Positions 18 through 20,948 of a stretch of 24,000 nucleotides of DNA are shown in pieces. This stretch comes from Campylobacter sp. RM5004 (lineage in GTDB: Bacteria > Campylobacterota > Campylobacteria > Campylobacterales > Campylobacteraceae): contig NZ_CP059599.1 of NCBI RefSeq assembly GCF_022369455.1, forward strand, positions 66,409 to 90,408, in the 5' to 3' direction. Numbering within the stretch: position 1 is the stretch's first letter; every line of letters starts with the position of its first letter. Below the pieces are notes generated by a model. The model did no database searches, had not been told where the DNA came from, and was given only the letters and a program-made list of their open reading frames with translations. The position numbers were made by a program, and so were the translations under genes.

Positions 18-503
18 ATGGATAAAACTACTAAATTACCAATATTTGGGGTAGGACCTATTTATGTCATAACTTGTCTTTTGCTTACGATTTTTGGACT
101 TCGTTTGGATTATTTTGGTTTTTTAGATTTTGCAAAATTGCCAAAGGCAAGAGCTTTTATGTCTATTTTGGGTAGTATTTTTATCGTTGGTGGTGTTATT
201 TTATGGGTAAAGTCCGTTATATTTTCAAAGATTAGCGAGAAAATCAAATCAGGACTTTTAGTTACAGACGGAGTTTATAGCATAGTAAGAAACCCGATAT
301 ATTCGGCTTTTTTGTTTATTTTCACTGGGGCTTTATTATTTACTTATAATTTTTGTTTATTAGTTTTACCTTTTATTTTCTGGGCTTTTCTTACCATTTT
401 AATGAAAAACACAGAAGAAAAATGGTTACAAGAAAAATTCGGCGACAGTTACACGCAGTATTGCAAAAAAGTAAATAGAATAATCCCATGGTTTAAAAGA
501 TAA
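18..503 (+). CDS. Polytopic membrane methyltransferase, isoprenylcysteine carboxyl methyltransferase (ICMT)/phospholipid methyltransferase family
   Basis: The 161-aa ORF has an RBS (AAGGA) a few nt upstream of the ATG. It has several hydrophobic helices and the family-typical C-terminal core LVTDGVYSIVRNPIYSAFLFIFTG. The family assignment is from motif memory only. Confidence 0.65.
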   Translation: MDKTTKLPIFGVGPIYVITCLLLTIFGLRLDYFGFLDFAKLPKARAFMSILGSIFIVGGVILWVKSVIFSKISEKIKSGLLVTDGVYSIVRNPIYSAFLFIFTGALLFTYNFCLLVLPFIFWAFLTILMKNTEEKWLQEKFGDSYTQYCKKVNRIIPWFKR

Positions 504-545
504 ATTACGGATTTAAATTCTTCTAAAATACACGAAATAAATTCC
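502..545 (+). repeat. Junction repeat copy: 3' part of submotif A (AAATTACGGATTTAAATTC) followed by an exact submotif B (AAAATACACGAAATAAATTC, 525-544)
   Basis: It starts at the stop codon of the 18-503 gene. The B 20-mer is identical to copies at 8425-8444 (+), 15856-15875 (-) and 20860-20879 (-). Confidence 0.8.
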
Positions 546-696
546 ACGATTTAATCCCTATATTTCACGCAACATAACACAAGTTTATGGCTTTAAAGTT
601 TATAAAATTACATTCTAATTTTAATACTATTTTACATTATATTTTATCAAATAAAAGATAGGATAATATGTAAAATATCTCAAAATAAGGATAAAA

Positions 697-2640
697 ATGA
701 GAAGGTTTATAACGGATATTATTTTTATAATCTCATCAATTACTTTTATGATTTATTTGTTTATGGTGTATTTTGCTGACTTTGATACTTTGAATGATGA
801 TTTTTTATATGGTTTTGCTATGTGTTTAGGTGCTACGATTATCGCTCCTTGCTTATGTTTTTTACTTACAAAAGATAAGCCAAAAGCCTATGATGATTCT
901 ATATCAGAAGAAAGCCAAGCGGATATAAAAACCATTGTGGAAACATTTAGCCAAAACAAAACTAAGCATTCCATAGCATTGCTAGGCAAATGGGGTTGTG
1001 GCAAGACATATTTATGGGAGCATTTTATAAGACCAAAAATTGCCATAAAATACGAACTAATCACAGCCAATCTAGCAAAATCAATGGCTATTGTTTGTGG
1101 TTTGTTTTTGCTTGCGTGCTTAAATGATGATTTGATAAAGCTAATTAGAGCTTATTTTTGCGTTAGTTATTTTGACTTTTTTAAGCCTATATTTTTATTT
1201 CCGATACTTTTAGGACTTTTTATTTATATTAGGATTTTTAGTAGCTATAAAAACTCTATTATTTACATAAGTTTATACGGCAAAAATGATTTCAAATCAG
1301 CTATAGATGAGATTTATCAAAAATCACAAGATAGTAAAGACTATCTAATAAGACTTTTAAACGGACTAAGCTCCAAAATCACAGGAATTGAAAATCTATT
1401 TTATAAGCTTGATGAAGACGGCTTTGAAAATAAAATCATTTGCATTGATGATATAGAAAGACGCCCAAAAAGTATGGAGCTAGAAGATGTCTTTGGTTTG
1501 GTATCTCATCTAAAAGAGAGTAAAAAATGCCATGTTTTGGCGATTTTCGGCGAGGGGGTGTATTATGTTGGTGAAAAATCTAAATGGGGTGAGTTAGCTA
1601 GTAAATTTGACAATACACCAAAGCCAGAAAAGCCACAAAAAGACCCCAAAAATACAATTAATTATTTTGTAAATCACGACTTTTTTGAAAAAACTTTTGA
1701 TATAAAAATTGATATGAGTAATAATTATTTTTTACTTCTTTACTTGGTGAGTAAAAGCAGTATAAAATTAAGTCTTAAAGGCAAAGAAGAGCTAATTAAA
1801 TTTATATATGATTTAGAAGAGTATAAAACAGAAGGAACTTCAATACAAGCTAATATTAGGTGGTTTGAAAAAAATTTTCAACAATTTGAAGCAAAATTGA
1901 GAAAATTAAATTTATTAGAGCTTGATAAAGATTTTTTAGAATTTTACTATGCTGATTTTTTCAAGCAAGTTTATGATATATATGATTTTAATTATCCCGA
2001 TGCTAGATATTTTGGTCATGTTTTTTGGTTAGACTGCGAACGCCAAATTACAAATAATTCTTTTGCAACTTTTGATAACTCTTATAGATATTTTATAGAT
2101 TGCTATAAAACCTACGAACACTTAAACGCTATAAAAGAATTTTATGCCGCAAGTGTTGAGATAGATAATTTTTATGATATTTTGAATTATAAAATATTTA
2201 AATTTCAAATACTATTTTTGCTAAGATTAGCCTATGAAGATAAGTGTAATTATAAAGAAGATTTTAGAAAAATATATAAAAATATCCTAAACTATACAAT
2301 CTCAGATTTATCACATTTAAAAAATGTTATCAAGCTACTAAAAAAATACGATTTTACAAAAGATATAAAGTGCAATGAAGAAATAAATTCAAAAATGAGT
2401 GAGCTTATGCATTATAGAAGTGATAAAGTTTATTTTCATCATATTAGTCTTTATAATTTATACAAACTTATACTAAATGATAATTCACAAGGCTTTGAAG
2501 CCATAAACAACTCTTATTTTAAAGTCTCGTTAGAATTGCTCTTAGCTTTATTATTAGACTTTGATACGCAAGATGATGAAAATCATACTGAGGTTATAAA
2601 TAAACTTAAAGAGATTTTAGGGACAAATAGCATTGAATAA
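697..2640 (+). CDS. KAP-family P-loop NTPase with transmembrane helices (Tmn-like candidate defence NTPase)
   Basis: The 647-aa ORF has an RBS AAGGA. Walker A is LLGKWGCGKTYL (GKWGCGKT at nt 985-1008) and Walker B-like is KIICIDDIERR (DD at nt 1447-1452). Two hydrophobic helices lie between Walker A and B (MAIVCGLFLLACL and IFLFPILLGLFIYIRIF), plus two N-terminal helices. A membrane insertion inside the P-loop domain is the KAP hallmark. Confidence 0.7.
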   Translation: MRRFITDIIFIISSITFMIYLFMVYFADFDTLNDDFLYGFAMCLGATIIAPCLCFLLTKDKPKAYDDSISEESQADIKTIVETFSQNKTKHSIALLGKWGCGKTYLWEHFIRPKIAIKYELITANLAKSMAIVCGLFLLACLNDDLIKLIRAYFCVSYFDFFKPIFLFPILLGLFIYIRIFSSYKNSIIYISLYGKNDFKSAIDEIYQKSQDSKDYLIRLLNGLSSKITGIENLFYKLDEDGFENKIICIDDIERRPKSMELEDVFGLVSHLKESKKCHVLAIFGEGVYYVGEKSKWGELASKFDNTPKPEKPQKDPKNTINYFVNHDFFEKTFDIKIDMSNNYFLLLYLVSKSSIKLSLKGKEELIKFIYDLEEYKTEGTSIQANIRWFEKNFQQFEAKLRKLNLLELDKDFLEFYYADFFKQVYDIYDFNYPDARYFGHVFWLDCERQITNNSFATFDNSYRYFIDCYKTYEHLNAIKEFYAASVEIDNFYDILNYKIFKFQILFLLRLAYEDKCNYKEDFRKIYKNILNYTISDLSHLKNVIKLLKKYDFTKDIKCNEEINSKMSELMHYRSDKVYFHHISLYNLYKLILNDNSQGFEAINNSYFKVSLELLLALLLDFDTQDDENHTEVINKLKEILGTNSIE

Positions 2641-20600: not shown

Positions 20601-20786
20601 CTACAAATCATCAAAAATAATGCAAGTATAGACTGGATGATAAAAGAAAATGTAAGAGCAAGGCTAAGAGTAGCTGTAAAAAGAGTGCTCAATAAATACG
20701 GCTATCCACCTGATATGCAACAACTTGCGATTGATGGAGTTTTAGCTCAAGCTGAGATTTTGGCTATGGAATTAGCTAGCGAGTAG
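17691..20786 (+). CDS. hsdR: Type I R-M restriction/helicase subunit HsdR (locus B), full length
   Basis: The ORF is 1031 aa. The nuclease motif is [21 protein letters not shown]. Helicase motifs are [55 protein letters not shown] and QAIARVNRV. It has a long helical C-terminal region. Confidence 0.93.
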   Translation: [1031 protein letters not shown]

Positions 20787-20815
20787 AGCTTGGCTTAAAG
20801 CTAAGTGTGATTTTA

Positions 20816-20948
20816 GGAATTTGAAATAGGAATTTAAAAGTAAATTTCGTTTGTTTAAGGAATTTATTTCGTGTATTTTTGGCTAGGTTTTATTGTGAAA
20901 TCCTAACCCAAAGTGGTGTCAAACAAACGAAATTCCGAGTTTAAATTC
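20816..20948. repeat. Junction repeat cluster between convergent genes: inverted A (20816-20856), exact inverted B (20860-20879), forward A (20921-20948, 2 mismatches)
   Basis: These are direct matches to the other copies. The forward A ends at the stop codon of the - strand gene. Confidence 0.85.

What the first reader, a model, noticed from the sequence alone, without database searches (positions are those of the whole stretch)
502..20948. A two-part ~50-bp repeat marks almost every module junction of the island
Seen in the sequence.

Submotif A (AAACAAACGAAATTCCGAATTCAAATTC):
- Exact 28-mers at 8113-8140, 8317-8344 and 15826-15853.
- Copies with 1-3 mismatches at 2761-2788, 5641-5668, 11459-11485 and 20921-20948.
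- Inverted cores at 5598-5613, 7870-7885, 8168-8184, 8270-8285, 11432-11447 and 20840-20856.

Submotif B (AAAATACACGAAATAAATTC):
- Exact copies at 525-544 and 8425-8444.
- Exact inverted copies at 15856-15875 and 20860-20879.
- Many variants elsewhere.

The copies fall at these junctions:
- After the ICMT-family gene.
- Before hsdM-A.
- After hsdS-A.
- After the GHKL gene and before hsdR-A.
- After hsdR-A.
- Inside operon B, between the AlbA_2 gene and hsdS-B.
- Between the convergent hsdR-B and the membrane pseudogene.

They therefore partition the island into cassette-like blocks: KAP; hsdM-hsdS A; GHKL-nuclease; hsdR A; membrane-hsdM-AlbA_2; hsdS-small TM-hsdR B. I see no recombinase in the window.

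Inference, in three alternatives:
- Recombination or insertion junctions that allow cassette exchange within hsd loci.
- A MITE/REP-like element that also supplies terminator or insulator hairpins, since inverted A pairs sit just 3' of genes.
- Operator sites for a shared regulator.
Basis: partly seen in the sequence, partly recalled or inferred. Interest (0 to 1): 0.72.

Follow-up and report, generated by a model that had tools for sequence, protein, structure and literature searches.

The report
Modular junction repeats in Campylobacter defence island
A real family of short two-part DNA repeats sits at the ends of gene modules in a strain-variable restriction-modification/defence island of Campylobacter; it most likely provides shared linker sequence where modules are swapped, and no dedicated cassette-exchange machinery was found.

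Summary
Unit A (28 bp) has 9 full copies and about 7 core-only copies. Unit B (20 bp, resembling a shortened A) has 8 copies. None are expected by chance, and nearly all lie in the 9.8% of the window that is non-coding.

The window is Campylobacter sp. RM5004. The island lies after a conserved PEMT/ICMT gene and carries different cargo in all four relatives' contigs that cover this site. Homology between strains repeatedly stops exactly at a repeat edge (544, 5597/5598, 11458, 20921). Relatives carry orphan stubs (RBS-ATG-A-B). One assembly breaks at an A copy.

- The copy "before hsdM-A" is codons 3-12 of hsdM-A; A+B encode the start of a clade-specific N-terminal extension.
- The copy upstream of hsdS-B lies in a small coupling ORF conserved in C. 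jejuni and C. lari.
- Swaps inside operons (hsdS domains, rlo/mlo genes) use no repeat.
- Breakpoints are not enriched at repeats relative to intergenic DNA in general.

Best reading: modular mosaic repeats like pneumococcal BOX or neisserial NIME elements, travelling with module ends and serving as recombination linkers. MITE-like mobility and site-specific recombination are not excluded. Genome-wide distribution could not be tested.

The parts
502..545 (+). Truncated A (A2 half) plus exact B, starting at the stop codon of the PEMT/ICMT gene; left edge of the variable island
   Evidence: The same stub follows the PEMT gene in L012 and L014. Homology to relatives ends at 544, 532 and 506.
2761..2788 (+). 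Full A, codons 3-12 of hsdM-A (MKQTNEIPNLNS); start of a clade-specific N-terminal extension
   Evidence: The extension is absent from all HsdM homologues at 61% identity or less.
5598..5635 (-). Inverted short A core (5599-5611, one mismatch) plus inverted B (5616-5635); trailer after hsdS-A
   Evidence: Homology to L014 stops at 5597.
5641..5689 (+). Canonical A-B unit, leader of the GHKL module
7815..7885 (.). About 70-bp palindromic element: short A core (7816-7828), 28-nt loop, full inverted A (7857-7884), 28 nt after the GHKL stop
   Evidence: Hairpin -17.9 kcal/mol, z -2.6. 85% identical to 8238-8283 (D18).
7941..7960 (+). B variant (2 mismatches)
8090..8184 (.). B (8090-8109), exact A (8113-8140), B-like (8141-8160), inverted A core (8169-8181): a cargo-less unit that folds as a hairpin
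8217..8285 (.). Second ~70-bp palindromic element: degenerate A core plus full inverted A (8257-8284)
   Evidence: A copy also lies in L014 at 7260-7319.
8317..8444 (+). Exact A followed by an array of B-like units ending in exact B (8425-8444); leader of hsdR-A, with unit number differing between strains
   Evidence: period 23. Compared with L014 and L042. Homology to L014 resumes at 8339.
11419..11447 (-). Inverted A with decayed second half; trailer of hsdR-A
   Evidence: With the next part it forms a -24.3 kcal/mol hairpin, z -7.9.
11458..11485 (+). Full A; left terminus of the membrane-gene/hsd-B module
   Evidence: Homology to CP035946.1 (L008) starts exactly at 11458. The L099 contig starts 8 nt after it.
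15703..15827 (+). Two direct copies of an accessory ~37-bp unit 'C' (GTTRTGCTTTCGTCA...AAGCTTAA) preceding A
   Evidence: There is one copy in C. jejuni and two in C. lari.
15826..15875 (.). Exact A plus exact inverted B, inside a small ORF (15707-15922) that ends overlapping the hsdS-B start
   Evidence: Conserved in C. lari, C. jejuni and CP035946.1. The ORF is on record on at least 1000 contigs.
20817..20879 (-). Inverted A (second half 20817-20836, core 20841-20856, split by an insertion) plus exact inverted B (20860-20879); trailer of hsdR-B
   Evidence: Absent after hsdR in C. lari, C. jejuni and L008.
20921..20948 (+). Full A abutting the stop codon of the minus-strand membrane gene (an inverted 3' trailer in that gene's orientation)
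   Evidence: Homology to L099 starts exactly at 20921.
23354..23366 (+). Core-only 13-mer inside the McrB-like CDS; probably a chance match, not part of the family
   Evidence: Not conserved at the orthologous position in L099.

Best explanation
This is a Campylobacter-specific family of modular, mosaic intergenic repeats.

Units:
- A, 28 bp.
- B, 20 bp. It shares ACGAAAT...AAATTC with A and looks like a shortened A.
- Accessory units C and D.

Arrangement:
- The units occur as alternating A-B arrays, inverted pairs and ~70-bp cargo-less hairpin elements.
- They lie in the spacers between operon-level modules of a type I restriction-modification-centred defence island.
- The island sits at a fixed chromosomal site after a PEMT/ICMT gene.
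- Each module tends to carry A in direct orientation at its 5' end and an inverted A at its 3' end.

Most likely mechanism: the units travel with module ends. They act as shared 20-50-bp homology patches where transformed or resident DNA recombines. This would produce module replacement, insertion, deletion stubs and changes in unit number, with copies homogenised by gene conversion.

Side effects:
- Inverted pairs give hairpins in read-through transcripts, which might insulate modules.
- Some copies have been taken over as coding sequence: the first 12-20 codons of hsdM-A, and a small ORF that links hsdM (or the inserted AlbA_2 gene) to hsdS-B.

Shown: the repeat anatomy, its intergenic and junction location, strain-to-strain cargo differences, breakpoints at unit edges, the stubs, and the coding use.

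Inferred: that recombination at the units, rather than merely next to them, drives the exchange; that it is RecA-type rather than enzyme-specific; and any hairpin function.
For: The repeat is non-random and intergenic.

Different cargo at the same site:
- RM5004: KAP, hsdMS-A, GHKL, hsdR-A, hsd-B and further genes.
- Cr9 (L012): a 556-aa gene, hsdM, a 430-aa gene, RhuM, hsdS, a pentapeptide protein.
- L013: LRR, rSAM and other genes.
- L014: YobI-ATPase, hsdMS, a 303-aa gene, DUF285, hsdR.
- Sources.

Homology ends at unit edges: 544, 532 and 506; 5597/5598; 8339; 11458; 20921.

Stubs and duplications:
- Orphan hsdM 5' stubs (RBS-ATG-A-B then a stop) occur in L013, twice.
- In L042 an inserted two-gene segment is flanked by a duplicated hsdM 5' end.

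B-array unit number upstream of hsdR-A differs between RM5004, L014 and L042.

Units have sharp edges against at least 8 different left neighbours of A. B likewise abuts several different right neighbours (sequences).

Three exact 28-mers and four exact 20-mers within one island suggest homogenisation.

A Logan assembly breaks 8 nt from an A copy.

A and B occur only inside the hsd locus, and not in about 33 kb of flanking housekeeping DNA, in C. lari and C. jejuni loci.

No recombinase or transposase Pfam domain was found in the window or the related loci.

Hairpins fold better than shuffles, with z from -2.6 to -7.9.
Against: - Breakpoints are not enriched at repeats relative to intergenic DNA as a whole. 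Only 6 of about 15 intergenic breakpoints lie within 20 nt, against roughly 46% of intergenic DNA within that distance; both figures are my own hand tallies from the listing, not tool outputs.
- BLAST alignments naturally extend through any shared repeat and stop at its far edge, which inflates the exact-edge coincidences.
- Many swaps inside operons occur without repeats.
- Units of 20-28 bp are short for RecA-mediated exchange.
- Sharp-edged units in many contexts need some mechanism that first spread them, and homologous recombination alone does not supply one.
- The genome-wide distribution in the host is unknown. A B+D segment lies in frame inside a TetR gene of a Campylobacteraceae MAG, so the family is not strictly tied to hsd loci.
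Confidence: 0.45

Rival explanations
1. MITE-like non-autonomous mobile element. The ~70-bp A-core/loop/inverted-A units, and possibly whole modules bracketed by inverted A copies, would be moved by a transposase encoded elsewhere. The junction location would then reflect insertion into tolerated spacers.
For: - 13-15-bp (up to 28-bp) terminal inverted arms enclose 10-66-nt loops.
- Cargo-less ~70-bp copies lie at 7815-7885 and 8217-8285, with relatives in L012 and L014.
- Units have sharp edges in many sequence contexts.
- There is an in-frame intragenic copy in a TetR gene.
- Every large module is bracketed by a direct A and an inverted A: 2761/5611, 5641/7885, 8317/11447, 11458/20856.
Against: - No target-site duplication is visible at any copy.
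- No transposase is present in the window or in roughly 150 kb of Campylobacter-derived fetched loci.
- There is no match to Campylobacter plasmids, phages or IMG/VR.
- Truncated and mosaic arrangements (half-A stubs, B arrays, crossing A/B order at 5598-5689) are untypical of transposition products.
Confidence: 0.2
2. Dedicated site-specific recombination sites, comparable to integron attC or Xer pdif modules. The palindromic inverted-A/spacer/A junctions would be recognised by a trans-encoded recombinase that excises and inserts defence modules.
For: - A palindromic junction with conserved arms and a variable spacer occurs between consecutive modules (5598-5654, 8257-8344, 11433-11471, 20841-20934).
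- Homology breaks fall exactly at the outer edge of A.
- Sequence is homogeneous within an array, as with Vibrio VCRs (my own knowledge).
Against: - No integrase or recombinase is present in the window or related loci.
- The attC core sites RYYYAAC/GTTRRRY are absent when the arms are read directly.
- Modules are multi-gene, 2-9 kb, with their own ribosome-binding sites.
- Junctions vary in unit content and order.
- Half-units and tandem arrays argue for slippage and homologous exchange.
Confidence: 0.1
3. Primarily regulatory DNA or RNA elements: operators for a shared regulator of hsd or defence genes, or terminator/insulator hairpins.
For: - Perfect short palindromes AAATTC-C-GAATTT and AAATTC-TT-GAATTT lie inside or at the units.
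- Arrays lie 40-190 nt upstream of the hsdR-A, hsdS-B and membrane-gene starts.
- A strong hairpin followed by a T-rich run lies after hsdR-A.
- An AlbA_2-HTH protein is encoded in operon B.
Against: - The same units occur downstream of genes, inside coding sequence and in both orientations.
- Loci in C. lari and C. jejuni have the unit but not the AlbA_2 gene.
- Terminator-like GC-rich hairpins are separate from the repeats (5546-5574 read from the sequence; 20788-20806 from the scan).
- Promoter scans are uninformative in this AT-rich DNA.
- Type I systems are classically controlled post-translationally (my own knowledge).
Confidence: 0.1
4. Passive relics: decayed 5' ends of hsdM-A-type genes and leader/trailer sequences of hsd operons, left by repeated replacement of restriction-modification systems, with no role of their own.
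For: - A+B is the true 5' coding end of intact hsdM genes.
- Stubs in L013 and L042 retain the RBS and ATG outside the unit.
- The copy at 8317 is preceded by a degraded RBS-like AAGGGTATTTAT.
- The hsd-A genes in this strain are already frameshifted.
Against: - Most copies lack the hsdM upstream context and have unrelated left neighbours.
- Copies occur in both orientations, as tight inverted pairs and as tandem arrays.
- The same unit is shared by two unrelated type I families (hsdM-A versus hsdM-B, 29.5% identity) and sits next to an LlaJI system in CP035946.1.
- The identity of dispersed copies is too high for independent decay.
Confidence: 0.15

Closest known systems
Pneumococcal BOX elements (boxA-boxB(n)-boxC modular intergenic repeats); comparison from my own knowledge
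   Same: - Short modules are combined in variable order and number.
- The outer modules are mutually complementary, so the element folds as a hairpin with a variable number of inner units. Compare A - B-like - inverted A core at 8113-8184 and the B arrays.
- The host is naturally competent and no transposase is known.
   Different: - There is no sequence similarity.
- BOX elements are scattered genome-wide (over 100 copies).
- Here the only sampled copies are in restriction-modification or defence loci, and the genome-wide count is unknown.
- The units here bracket multi-gene modules and are partly translated.
Neisseria intergenic mosaic elements (NIME: RS units flanked by dRS3 inverted repeats) and Correia elements; from my own knowledge
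   Same: - Mosaic arrays of short repeats are concentrated next to variable genes in a naturally transformable bacterium.
- NIMEs are proposed to promote recombination with incoming DNA.
- Both form hairpins.
   Different: - The dRS3 consensus and DNA uptake sequences are absent.
- NIMEs are targets of a known phage integrase-like enzyme, and no such enzyme is seen here.
Integron attC sites / Vibrio cholerae repeats (VCR); from my own knowledge
   Same: - Imperfect palindromes lie between consecutive cassettes.
- Sequence is homogeneous within one array.
- Loops are variable.
   Different: - The core sites RYYYAAC/GTTRRRY are not present.
- No IntI gene is present.
- Cassettes here are multi-gene operons of 2-9 kb with their own translation signals.
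Campylobacter jejuni hsd loci with intervening rlo/mlo ORFs (Miller et al. 2005, as summarised in PMC5183652)
   Same: - Gene order is the same, with accessory genes embedded between hsdM, hsdS and hsdR.
- The hsd-B genes are 93-96% identical to C. jejuni and C. lari loci.
- The A + inverted-B unit before hsdS is part of those loci.
   Different: - The summary available to me mentions rearrangement and mosaicism but no repeat family; the original paper could not be read.
- In C. jejuni and C. lari there is a single copy, against about 25 units in this island.
Rickettsia palindromic elements (RPE); from my own knowledge
   Same: Short palindromic repeats that can sit in frame inside protein-coding genes and add peptide segments. 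Compare the HsdM-A N-terminal extension and the TetR insertion in L018.
   Different: RPEs are 100-150 bp and inserted genome-wide. There is no link to module junctions.

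Membership tests
MITE (miniature inverted-repeat transposable element) | Terminal inverted repeats flanking a short non-coding core | tested here: met
   13-15-bp (up to 28-bp) inverted A arms lie around 28-42-nt cores at 7815-7885, 8113-8184 and 8217-8285.
MITE (miniature inverted-repeat transposable element) | Target-site duplication at the insertion | tested here: not met
   Flanks of 30 oriented copies were aligned. No direct duplication is present and there is no common target motif.
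MITE (miniature inverted-repeat transposable element) | Cognate autonomous IS/transposase with the same termini | tested here: not met
   No transposase domain is present in the window or fetched loci (and the locus tables). There is no match in plasmids, phages or IMG/VR. The whole host genome was not searchable.
MITE (miniature inverted-repeat transposable element) | Many dispersed copies across the genome | not testable with these tools
   The RM5004 genome is held out of contig look-ups. The genome-contig scan returned 0 hits although known positives exist.
Integron attC site | Core sites R'' RYYYAAC and R' GTTRRRY at the ends of an imperfect palindrome | tested here: not met
   Read directly from the arms, AAACAAACGAAATT / AATTTCGTTTGTTT do not fit RYYYAAC/GTTRRRY. 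Junction-type palindromes are in GTT...AAC order, not AAC...GTT.
Integron attC site | Adjacent integron integrase and an array of promoterless single-ORF cassettes | tested here: not met
   No integrase was found. Modules are 2-9-kb operons.
REP/BIME | 20-40-nt GC-rich imperfect palindromes with an associated RAYT transposase | tested here: not met
   The units are AT-rich, stems contain one or two G-C pairs, and loops are 10-66 nt. No Y1 transposase is present in the window.
Intrinsic terminator | GC-rich stem, 3-8-nt loop, U-tract | tested here: not met
   The scan flags no A/B hairpin; it does flag a separate stem at 20788-20806. Another separate GC-rich stem at 5546-5574 was read from the sequence. 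Only 11433-11471 plus a T-rich run comes close.
BOX/NIME-like modular intergenic mosaic repeats | Distinct short modules combined in variable order, number and orientation | tested here: met
   Arrangements A-B, B-A-B', A-inverted B, rc(B-A), tandem B arrays of differing length between strains, and accessory C and D units.
BOX/NIME-like modular intergenic mosaic repeats | Stable secondary structure from complementary outer modules | tested here: met
   z-scores are -2.6 to -7.9 for five of seven regions.
BOX/NIME-like modular intergenic mosaic repeats | Genome-wide intergenic distribution | not testable with these tools
   Only about 33 kb of C. lari and C. jejuni flanks (0 copies) and about 7 kb of L013 flank (one degenerate B plus one stub) could be inspected.
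Operator array for a transcription factor | Palindromic half-sites at a fixed distance from promoters, with a cognate regulator | tested here: inconclusive
   AAATTC-N1-2-GAATTT palindromes exist. Positions relative to gene starts vary and copies also lie 3' of genes. No regulator was identified.
Known RNA family (Rfam 15) | Match at the gathering score | tested here: not met
   There were 0 matches at gathering score. Only generic hairpin (miRNA-precursor) noise appeared, at E 0.03-0.9.

The most novel reading that the evidence does not exclude
The inverted-A/spacer/A palindromes are recognition sites of a dedicated, trans-encoded recombinase. That enzyme would excise, invert and insert whole defence modules (type I R-M halves, GHKL, KAP, McrBC and similar). 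This would be an integron- or pdif-like cassette system for multi-gene immune modules in a naturally competent epsilonproteobacterium.
Probability: 0.1. Interest if true: 0.85.

Novelty: new member of a known kind. Interest (0 to 1): 0.5.

Why it matters
How defence islands gain, lose and reshuffle systems is an open question. Here a short, easily recognised linker sequence brackets each operon-level module of a restriction-modification island, and the island's content differs in every strain examined. In a naturally transformable genus this gives a directly testable mechanism for module exchange: flank any cassette with A/B and measure integration, with and without recA.

The locus also shows repeat DNA being taken over as coding sequence, in the N-terminal tail of HsdM and in a small coupling ORF. 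The repeats break short-read assemblies at these loci, which matters for annotating Campylobacter methylomes and phage resistance.

If the repeats turn out to be ordinary genome-wide REP-like elements, the finding is of minor interest.

Tried and rejected
- **Genome-contig scans.** The degenerate 27-mer A pattern gave 0 hits. The same pattern matches C. lari LR134508.1 and CP035946.1 loci, so those genomes are not in the collection and the negative result says nothing. The B 18-mer gave 27 single hits, all chance-like except one Campylobacteraceae MAG.
- **Metagenome scans.** The A pattern gave 0 hits. The B pattern gave 54 single hits, of which only L066 is a true C. jejuni-type hsdM-hsdS junction.
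- **IMG/VR.** The A pattern gave 0 hits and the B pattern gave 3 single matches, not examined further and taken as chance.
- **Plasmids and phages by BLAST, including relaxed E-values.** Nothing relevant was found.
- **Rfam.** Nothing was found.
- **Miller et al. 2005.** The paper is not held. Literature searches found no described Campylobacter repeat of this kind.
- **Promoter scan.** It is uninformative in 30% GC DNA, with 68 sites found against 53 expected.
- **Terminator reading.** Rejected as the main function, because separate GC-rich terminators exist.
- **Integron attC reading.** Rejected on core-site sequence and the absence of IntI.
- **Xer/dif reading.** A is not an 11-6-11 palindrome, and from my recollection of difH sequences it does not resemble them. 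This was not tested with a tool.
- **RAATTY enrichment.** RAATTY is, from my recollection, the CtsM methylation motif needed for C. jejuni transformation. It is about 9-fold enriched in the repeat-rich spacers. The motif is common everywhere in this genome, so I did not adopt this as the explanation.
- **Copy at 23354 in the McrB-like CDS.** Judged to be chance, because it is not conserved in L099.

Full report

Yes.
- The 28-mer A (AAACAAACGAAATTCCGAATTCAAATTC) has 8 matches at 3 or fewer mismatches, against 0.00 expected.
- The 20-mer B (AAAATACACGAAATAAATTC) has 8 matches against 0.02 expected.
- A position-weight scan gives nine full-length A copies. Seven are direct (2761, 5641, 8113, 8317, 11458, 15826, 20921) and two are inverted (7857-7884, 8257-8284).
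- The 13-nt core AACAAACGAAATT occurs 14 times exactly. This includes short, core-only inverted copies at 8169-8181, 11433-11445 and 20843-20855. A fourth short inverted copy at 5599-5611 carries one mismatch and is not among the 14.
- 13 of 15 cores and 8 of 8 B copies lie in the 2,351 nt (9.8%) of the window that is non-coding.
It missed 7816-7828, two degenerate cores (8030-8042, 8218-8230) and a core inside the McrB-like CDS (23354).
- B shares ACGAAAT...AAATTC with A and looks like a shortened A.
- The units occur as A-B (5641-5689, 8113-8160, 8317-8364), B-A (8090-8140), A-inverted B (15826-15875), the reverse complement of B-A (5598-5635, 20841-20879), a tandem array of B-like units (8345-8444; period 23), and ~70-bp hairpin elements (7815-7885, 8217-8285).

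**2. Context**

- Pfam confirms the gene map: PEMT/ICMT, a KAP-like gene, hsdM-A, hsdS-A, a GHKL ATPase, hsdR-A, a membrane gene, hsdM-B, an AlbA_2 gene, hsdS-B, a SieB-like small membrane protein, hsdR-B, a minus-strand membrane gene, and a McrB-like gene running off the end.
- Exact protein look-up identifies the source as Campylobacter sp. RM5004, locus tags around AVANS_0078.
- That genome is held out of the contig tools.
- hsdM-A and hsdR-A each carry one frameshift.
- hsdR-B is 94-96% identical to C. lari and C. jejuni HsdR.

**3. What the copies are, one by one**

*Copy at 2761.* It is not upstream of hsdM-A. It is codons 3-12: ATG AAA CAA ACA AAC GAA ATT CCG AAT TTA AAT TCT.
- In an intact relative (L014) the gene begins ATG-A-B, giving MKQTNEITDLNSTKIHEINS.
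- This start leads into a 45-75-residue, low-complexity N-terminal extension that varies between strains.
- The extension is found only in five close relatives. All other HsdM homologues, at 61% identity or less, are about 495 residues without it.

*Copy at 15826-15875.* It belongs to a 161-nt segment that is 91-95% conserved upstream of hsdS in C. lari, C. jejuni and CP035946.1.
- In all seven independently fetched loci this segment is an open frame of 46-76 codons.
- In the loci where hsdM directly precedes it, the frame starts at the hsdM stop codon (TAATG or TAAATGATG); in the window itself the AlbA_2 gene intervenes and the frame can start at the ATG at 15707, 11 nt after the AlbA_2 stop. 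In every locus it ends overlapping the hsdS ATG (ATGAATAA). All indels are in frame.
- The ORF is on record on at least 1000 contigs.
- I estimated by hand that amino-acid divergence is about what neutral nucleotide change would give. It therefore looks like a translational-coupling ORF rather than a conserved protein.

*Remaining copies.* They are non-coding leaders and trailers.
- 502-545 starts at the PEMT stop codon.
- 20921-20948 abuts the stop codon of the minus-strand gene.
- In CP035946.1 an A copy overlaps the stop codon of an LlaJI restriction gene.

**4. Strain comparison**

The same site after the PEMT gene carries different cargo in each of the four relatives' contigs that cover it, none matching RM5004.

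Pairwise BLAST of the window against these loci shows where homology ends and resumes:
- It ends at 544 (the last base of B; Cr9), 532 (L014) and 506 (L013).
- It resumes 12 nt before the hsdM-A ATG.
- It ends at 5597, with the inverted A core starting at 5598.
- It resumes at 8339, inside the last bases of A at 8317-8344.
- It starts exactly at 11458 (against CP035946.1) and exactly at 20921 (against L099).

Other signs of exchange at the units:
- L013 has two orphan hsdM 5' stubs (RBS-ATG-A-B-stop) with no gene behind them.
- L042 has a stub, then two minus-strand genes, then a second RBS-ATG-A-B followed by an intact hsdM. This is an insertion flanked by a duplicated hsdM 5' end.
- The number and order of units upstream of hsdR-A differ between RM5004, L014 and L042.
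- The Logan contig L099 begins 8 nt after the position of A 11458-11485, as expected if assembly broke at a multi-copy repeat.

**5. Limits of that support**

- Of 41 distinct breakpoints, 8 lie within 20 nt of a repeat block, against 5.5% expected over the whole window (P = 0.0016).
- Restricting to intergenic breakpoints, I counted by hand 6 of about 15, while roughly 46% of intergenic DNA is that close to a block. So there is no enrichment beyond both being intergenic.
- What remains unusual is the exact coincidence with unit edges. BLAST extension through a shared repeat contributes to that.
- The classic variable points inside operons have no A/B copy at all. These are the hsdS target-recognition domains, the AlbA_2 insertion after hsdM-B at 14228, and the rlo-type gene between hsdS-B and hsdR-B.
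- The repeats therefore mark operon-level joints, not every exchange point.

**6. Anatomy relevant to mechanism**

- Each large module is bracketed by a direct A on its 5' side and an inverted A on its 3' side.
  - hsdMS-A: 2761 / 5598-5611.
  - GHKL: 5641 / 7857-7885.
  - hsdR-A: 8317 / 11419-11447.
  - Membrane gene plus hsd-B: 11458 / 20817-20856.
- The minus-strand gene follows the same rule in its own orientation.
- Consecutive modules therefore meet at inverted-A/spacer/A palindromes with spacers of 10-66 nt. These fold with z-scores of -2.6 to -7.9.
- The left edge of A is sharp against at least 8 unrelated neighbours. The right edge of B likewise abuts several different sequences.
- No target-site duplication is visible.
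- No recombinase or transposase domain is present in the window or in any fetched locus.
- GC-rich terminator-like hairpins exist separately, at 5546-5574 (read from the sequence) and 20788-20806.

**7. Distribution**

- In C. lari and C. jejuni loci the only copy is the one before hsdS. About 33 kb of flanking housekeeping DNA has none.
- In CP035946.1, copies lie next to an LlaJI system and upstream of the decayed hsd-B homologue.
- A Campylobacteraceae MAG has a B unit plus another unit (D, AAACAAGTGAYATTTGG, also seen in Cr9 and L042) in frame inside a TetR-family gene.
- There is no match in plasmids, phages, IMG/VR or Rfam.
- The genome and metagenome scans were uninformative, because genomes known to contain the pattern are not in those collections.

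**8. Interpretation**

The best fit is a modular mosaic repeat family of the kind exemplified by pneumococcal BOX elements and neisserial NIMEs (comparison from my own knowledge).
- Both are made of discrete short modules in variable combinations.
- Their outer modules are complementary and give hairpins.
- Both occur in a naturally competent host, without a linked transposase.

Here the units sit at module ends of a type I R-M-centred island. I judge it most likely (about 0.45) that they act as shared short homology at which modules are replaced, inserted or deleted, being both the product and the substrate of that recombination. Hairpin formation and coding use would be secondary consequences.

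Alternatives and my estimates:
- A MITE-like origin or ongoing mobility: 0.2.
- Passive relics: 0.15.
- A regulatory role: 0.1.
- True site-specific recombination sites: 0.1.

None of these is excluded, and several are compatible with each other.

**9. Novelty**

I found no description of this repeat in the searchable literature. The one paper most likely to mention it, Miller et al. 2005, could not be read. The A + inverted-B unit before hsdS is present in over a thousand public Campylobacter contigs, so the sequence itself is not new. Its recognition as a family that brackets defence modules appears to be new. I file it as a new member of a known kind, of moderate interest.

Noticed in passing
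window 15707-15922 (also L001, L003, L008, L043, L044, L066): A small ORF of 46-76 codons fills the gap before hsdS-B. Where hsdM directly precedes it, it starts at the hsdM stop codon; in the window it can start at the ATG at 15707, 11 nt after the stop of the inserted AlbA_2 gene. It ends overlapping the hsdS ATG. It is open in all seven independently fetched loci, and every indel is in frame. The ORF is on record on at least 1000 contigs. By my hand estimate its amino-acid divergence looks neutral, so it may exist only for translational coupling.
   Followed up: partly
window 2754-2930: HsdM-A has a 45-75-residue, T/E/Q/P-rich, strain-variable N-terminal extension. The extension begins in the A/B repeats and replaces the ancestral start. 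It is found only in this clade; other homologues are about 495 aa.
   Followed up: partly
window 3056-3068 and 9909-9973: hsdM-A and hsdR-A each carry a single frameshift. In hsdM-A it looks like loss of one copy of a 7-nt direct repeat (AAAAGCT). The hsd-A system is therefore probably inactive in this strain, while hsd-B is intact.
   Followed up: partly
window 7788-8524, 15697-15914, 20787-20947: RAATTY sites are 23-31 per kb in the repeat-rich spacers, against 3.4 per kb in coding DNA. From my recollection, RAATTY is the CtsM methylation motif required for natural transformation of C. jejuni. The enrichment may simply follow from the unit sequence.
   Followed up: no
window 15703-15827: A further ~37-bp unit (GTTRTGCTTTCGTCA...AAGCTTAA) is duplicated directly upstream of A. 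There are two copies in RM5004 and C. lari and one in C. jejuni and CP035946.1.
   Followed up: partly
L018 3525-3700 (Campylobacteraceae MAG contig CAZYDK010000128.1): A segment made of two AAACAAGTGAYATTTGG units plus a B unit lies in frame inside a TetR-family regulator gene, between the HTH domain and the C-terminal domain.
   Followed up: partly
L043 8379-9933; L001 7719-10004; L003 7595-9361; L042 9349-11107: The slot between hsdS and hsdR in related type I loci holds different defence genes. These are Kiwa KwaA/KwaB, an AAA_13 (PrrC/RloC-like) protein, an AAA_15/AAA_21 protein, and AAA_21 plus RloB. They are joined tightly, with no A/B repeats.
   Followed up: no
window 5546-5574 and 20788-20806: GC-rich stem-loops followed by T-rich sequence lie just after hsdS-A and hsdR-B. 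These, rather than the repeats, look like the actual intrinsic terminators.
   Followed up: partly
window 22132-24000 and L099 6172-9493: A McrB-like GTPase gene runs off the window end; in L099 it is followed by McrC. The island therefore continues beyond the window, and its right boundary was not seen.
   Followed up: no
L099 about 9520-9530: A run of 10 G lies just upstream of a TATAAT-like box and a 43-codon ORF downstream of mcrC. It is a possible phase-variable tract of the kind common in Campylobacter.
   Followed up: no
window 3001-4000, 9001-11000, 13001-14000: The hsd genes are 38-44% GC with a strongly A/C-rich coding strand, against about 28% GC for the neighbouring genes. This is consistent with horizontal origin of the R-M genes.
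   Followed up: no
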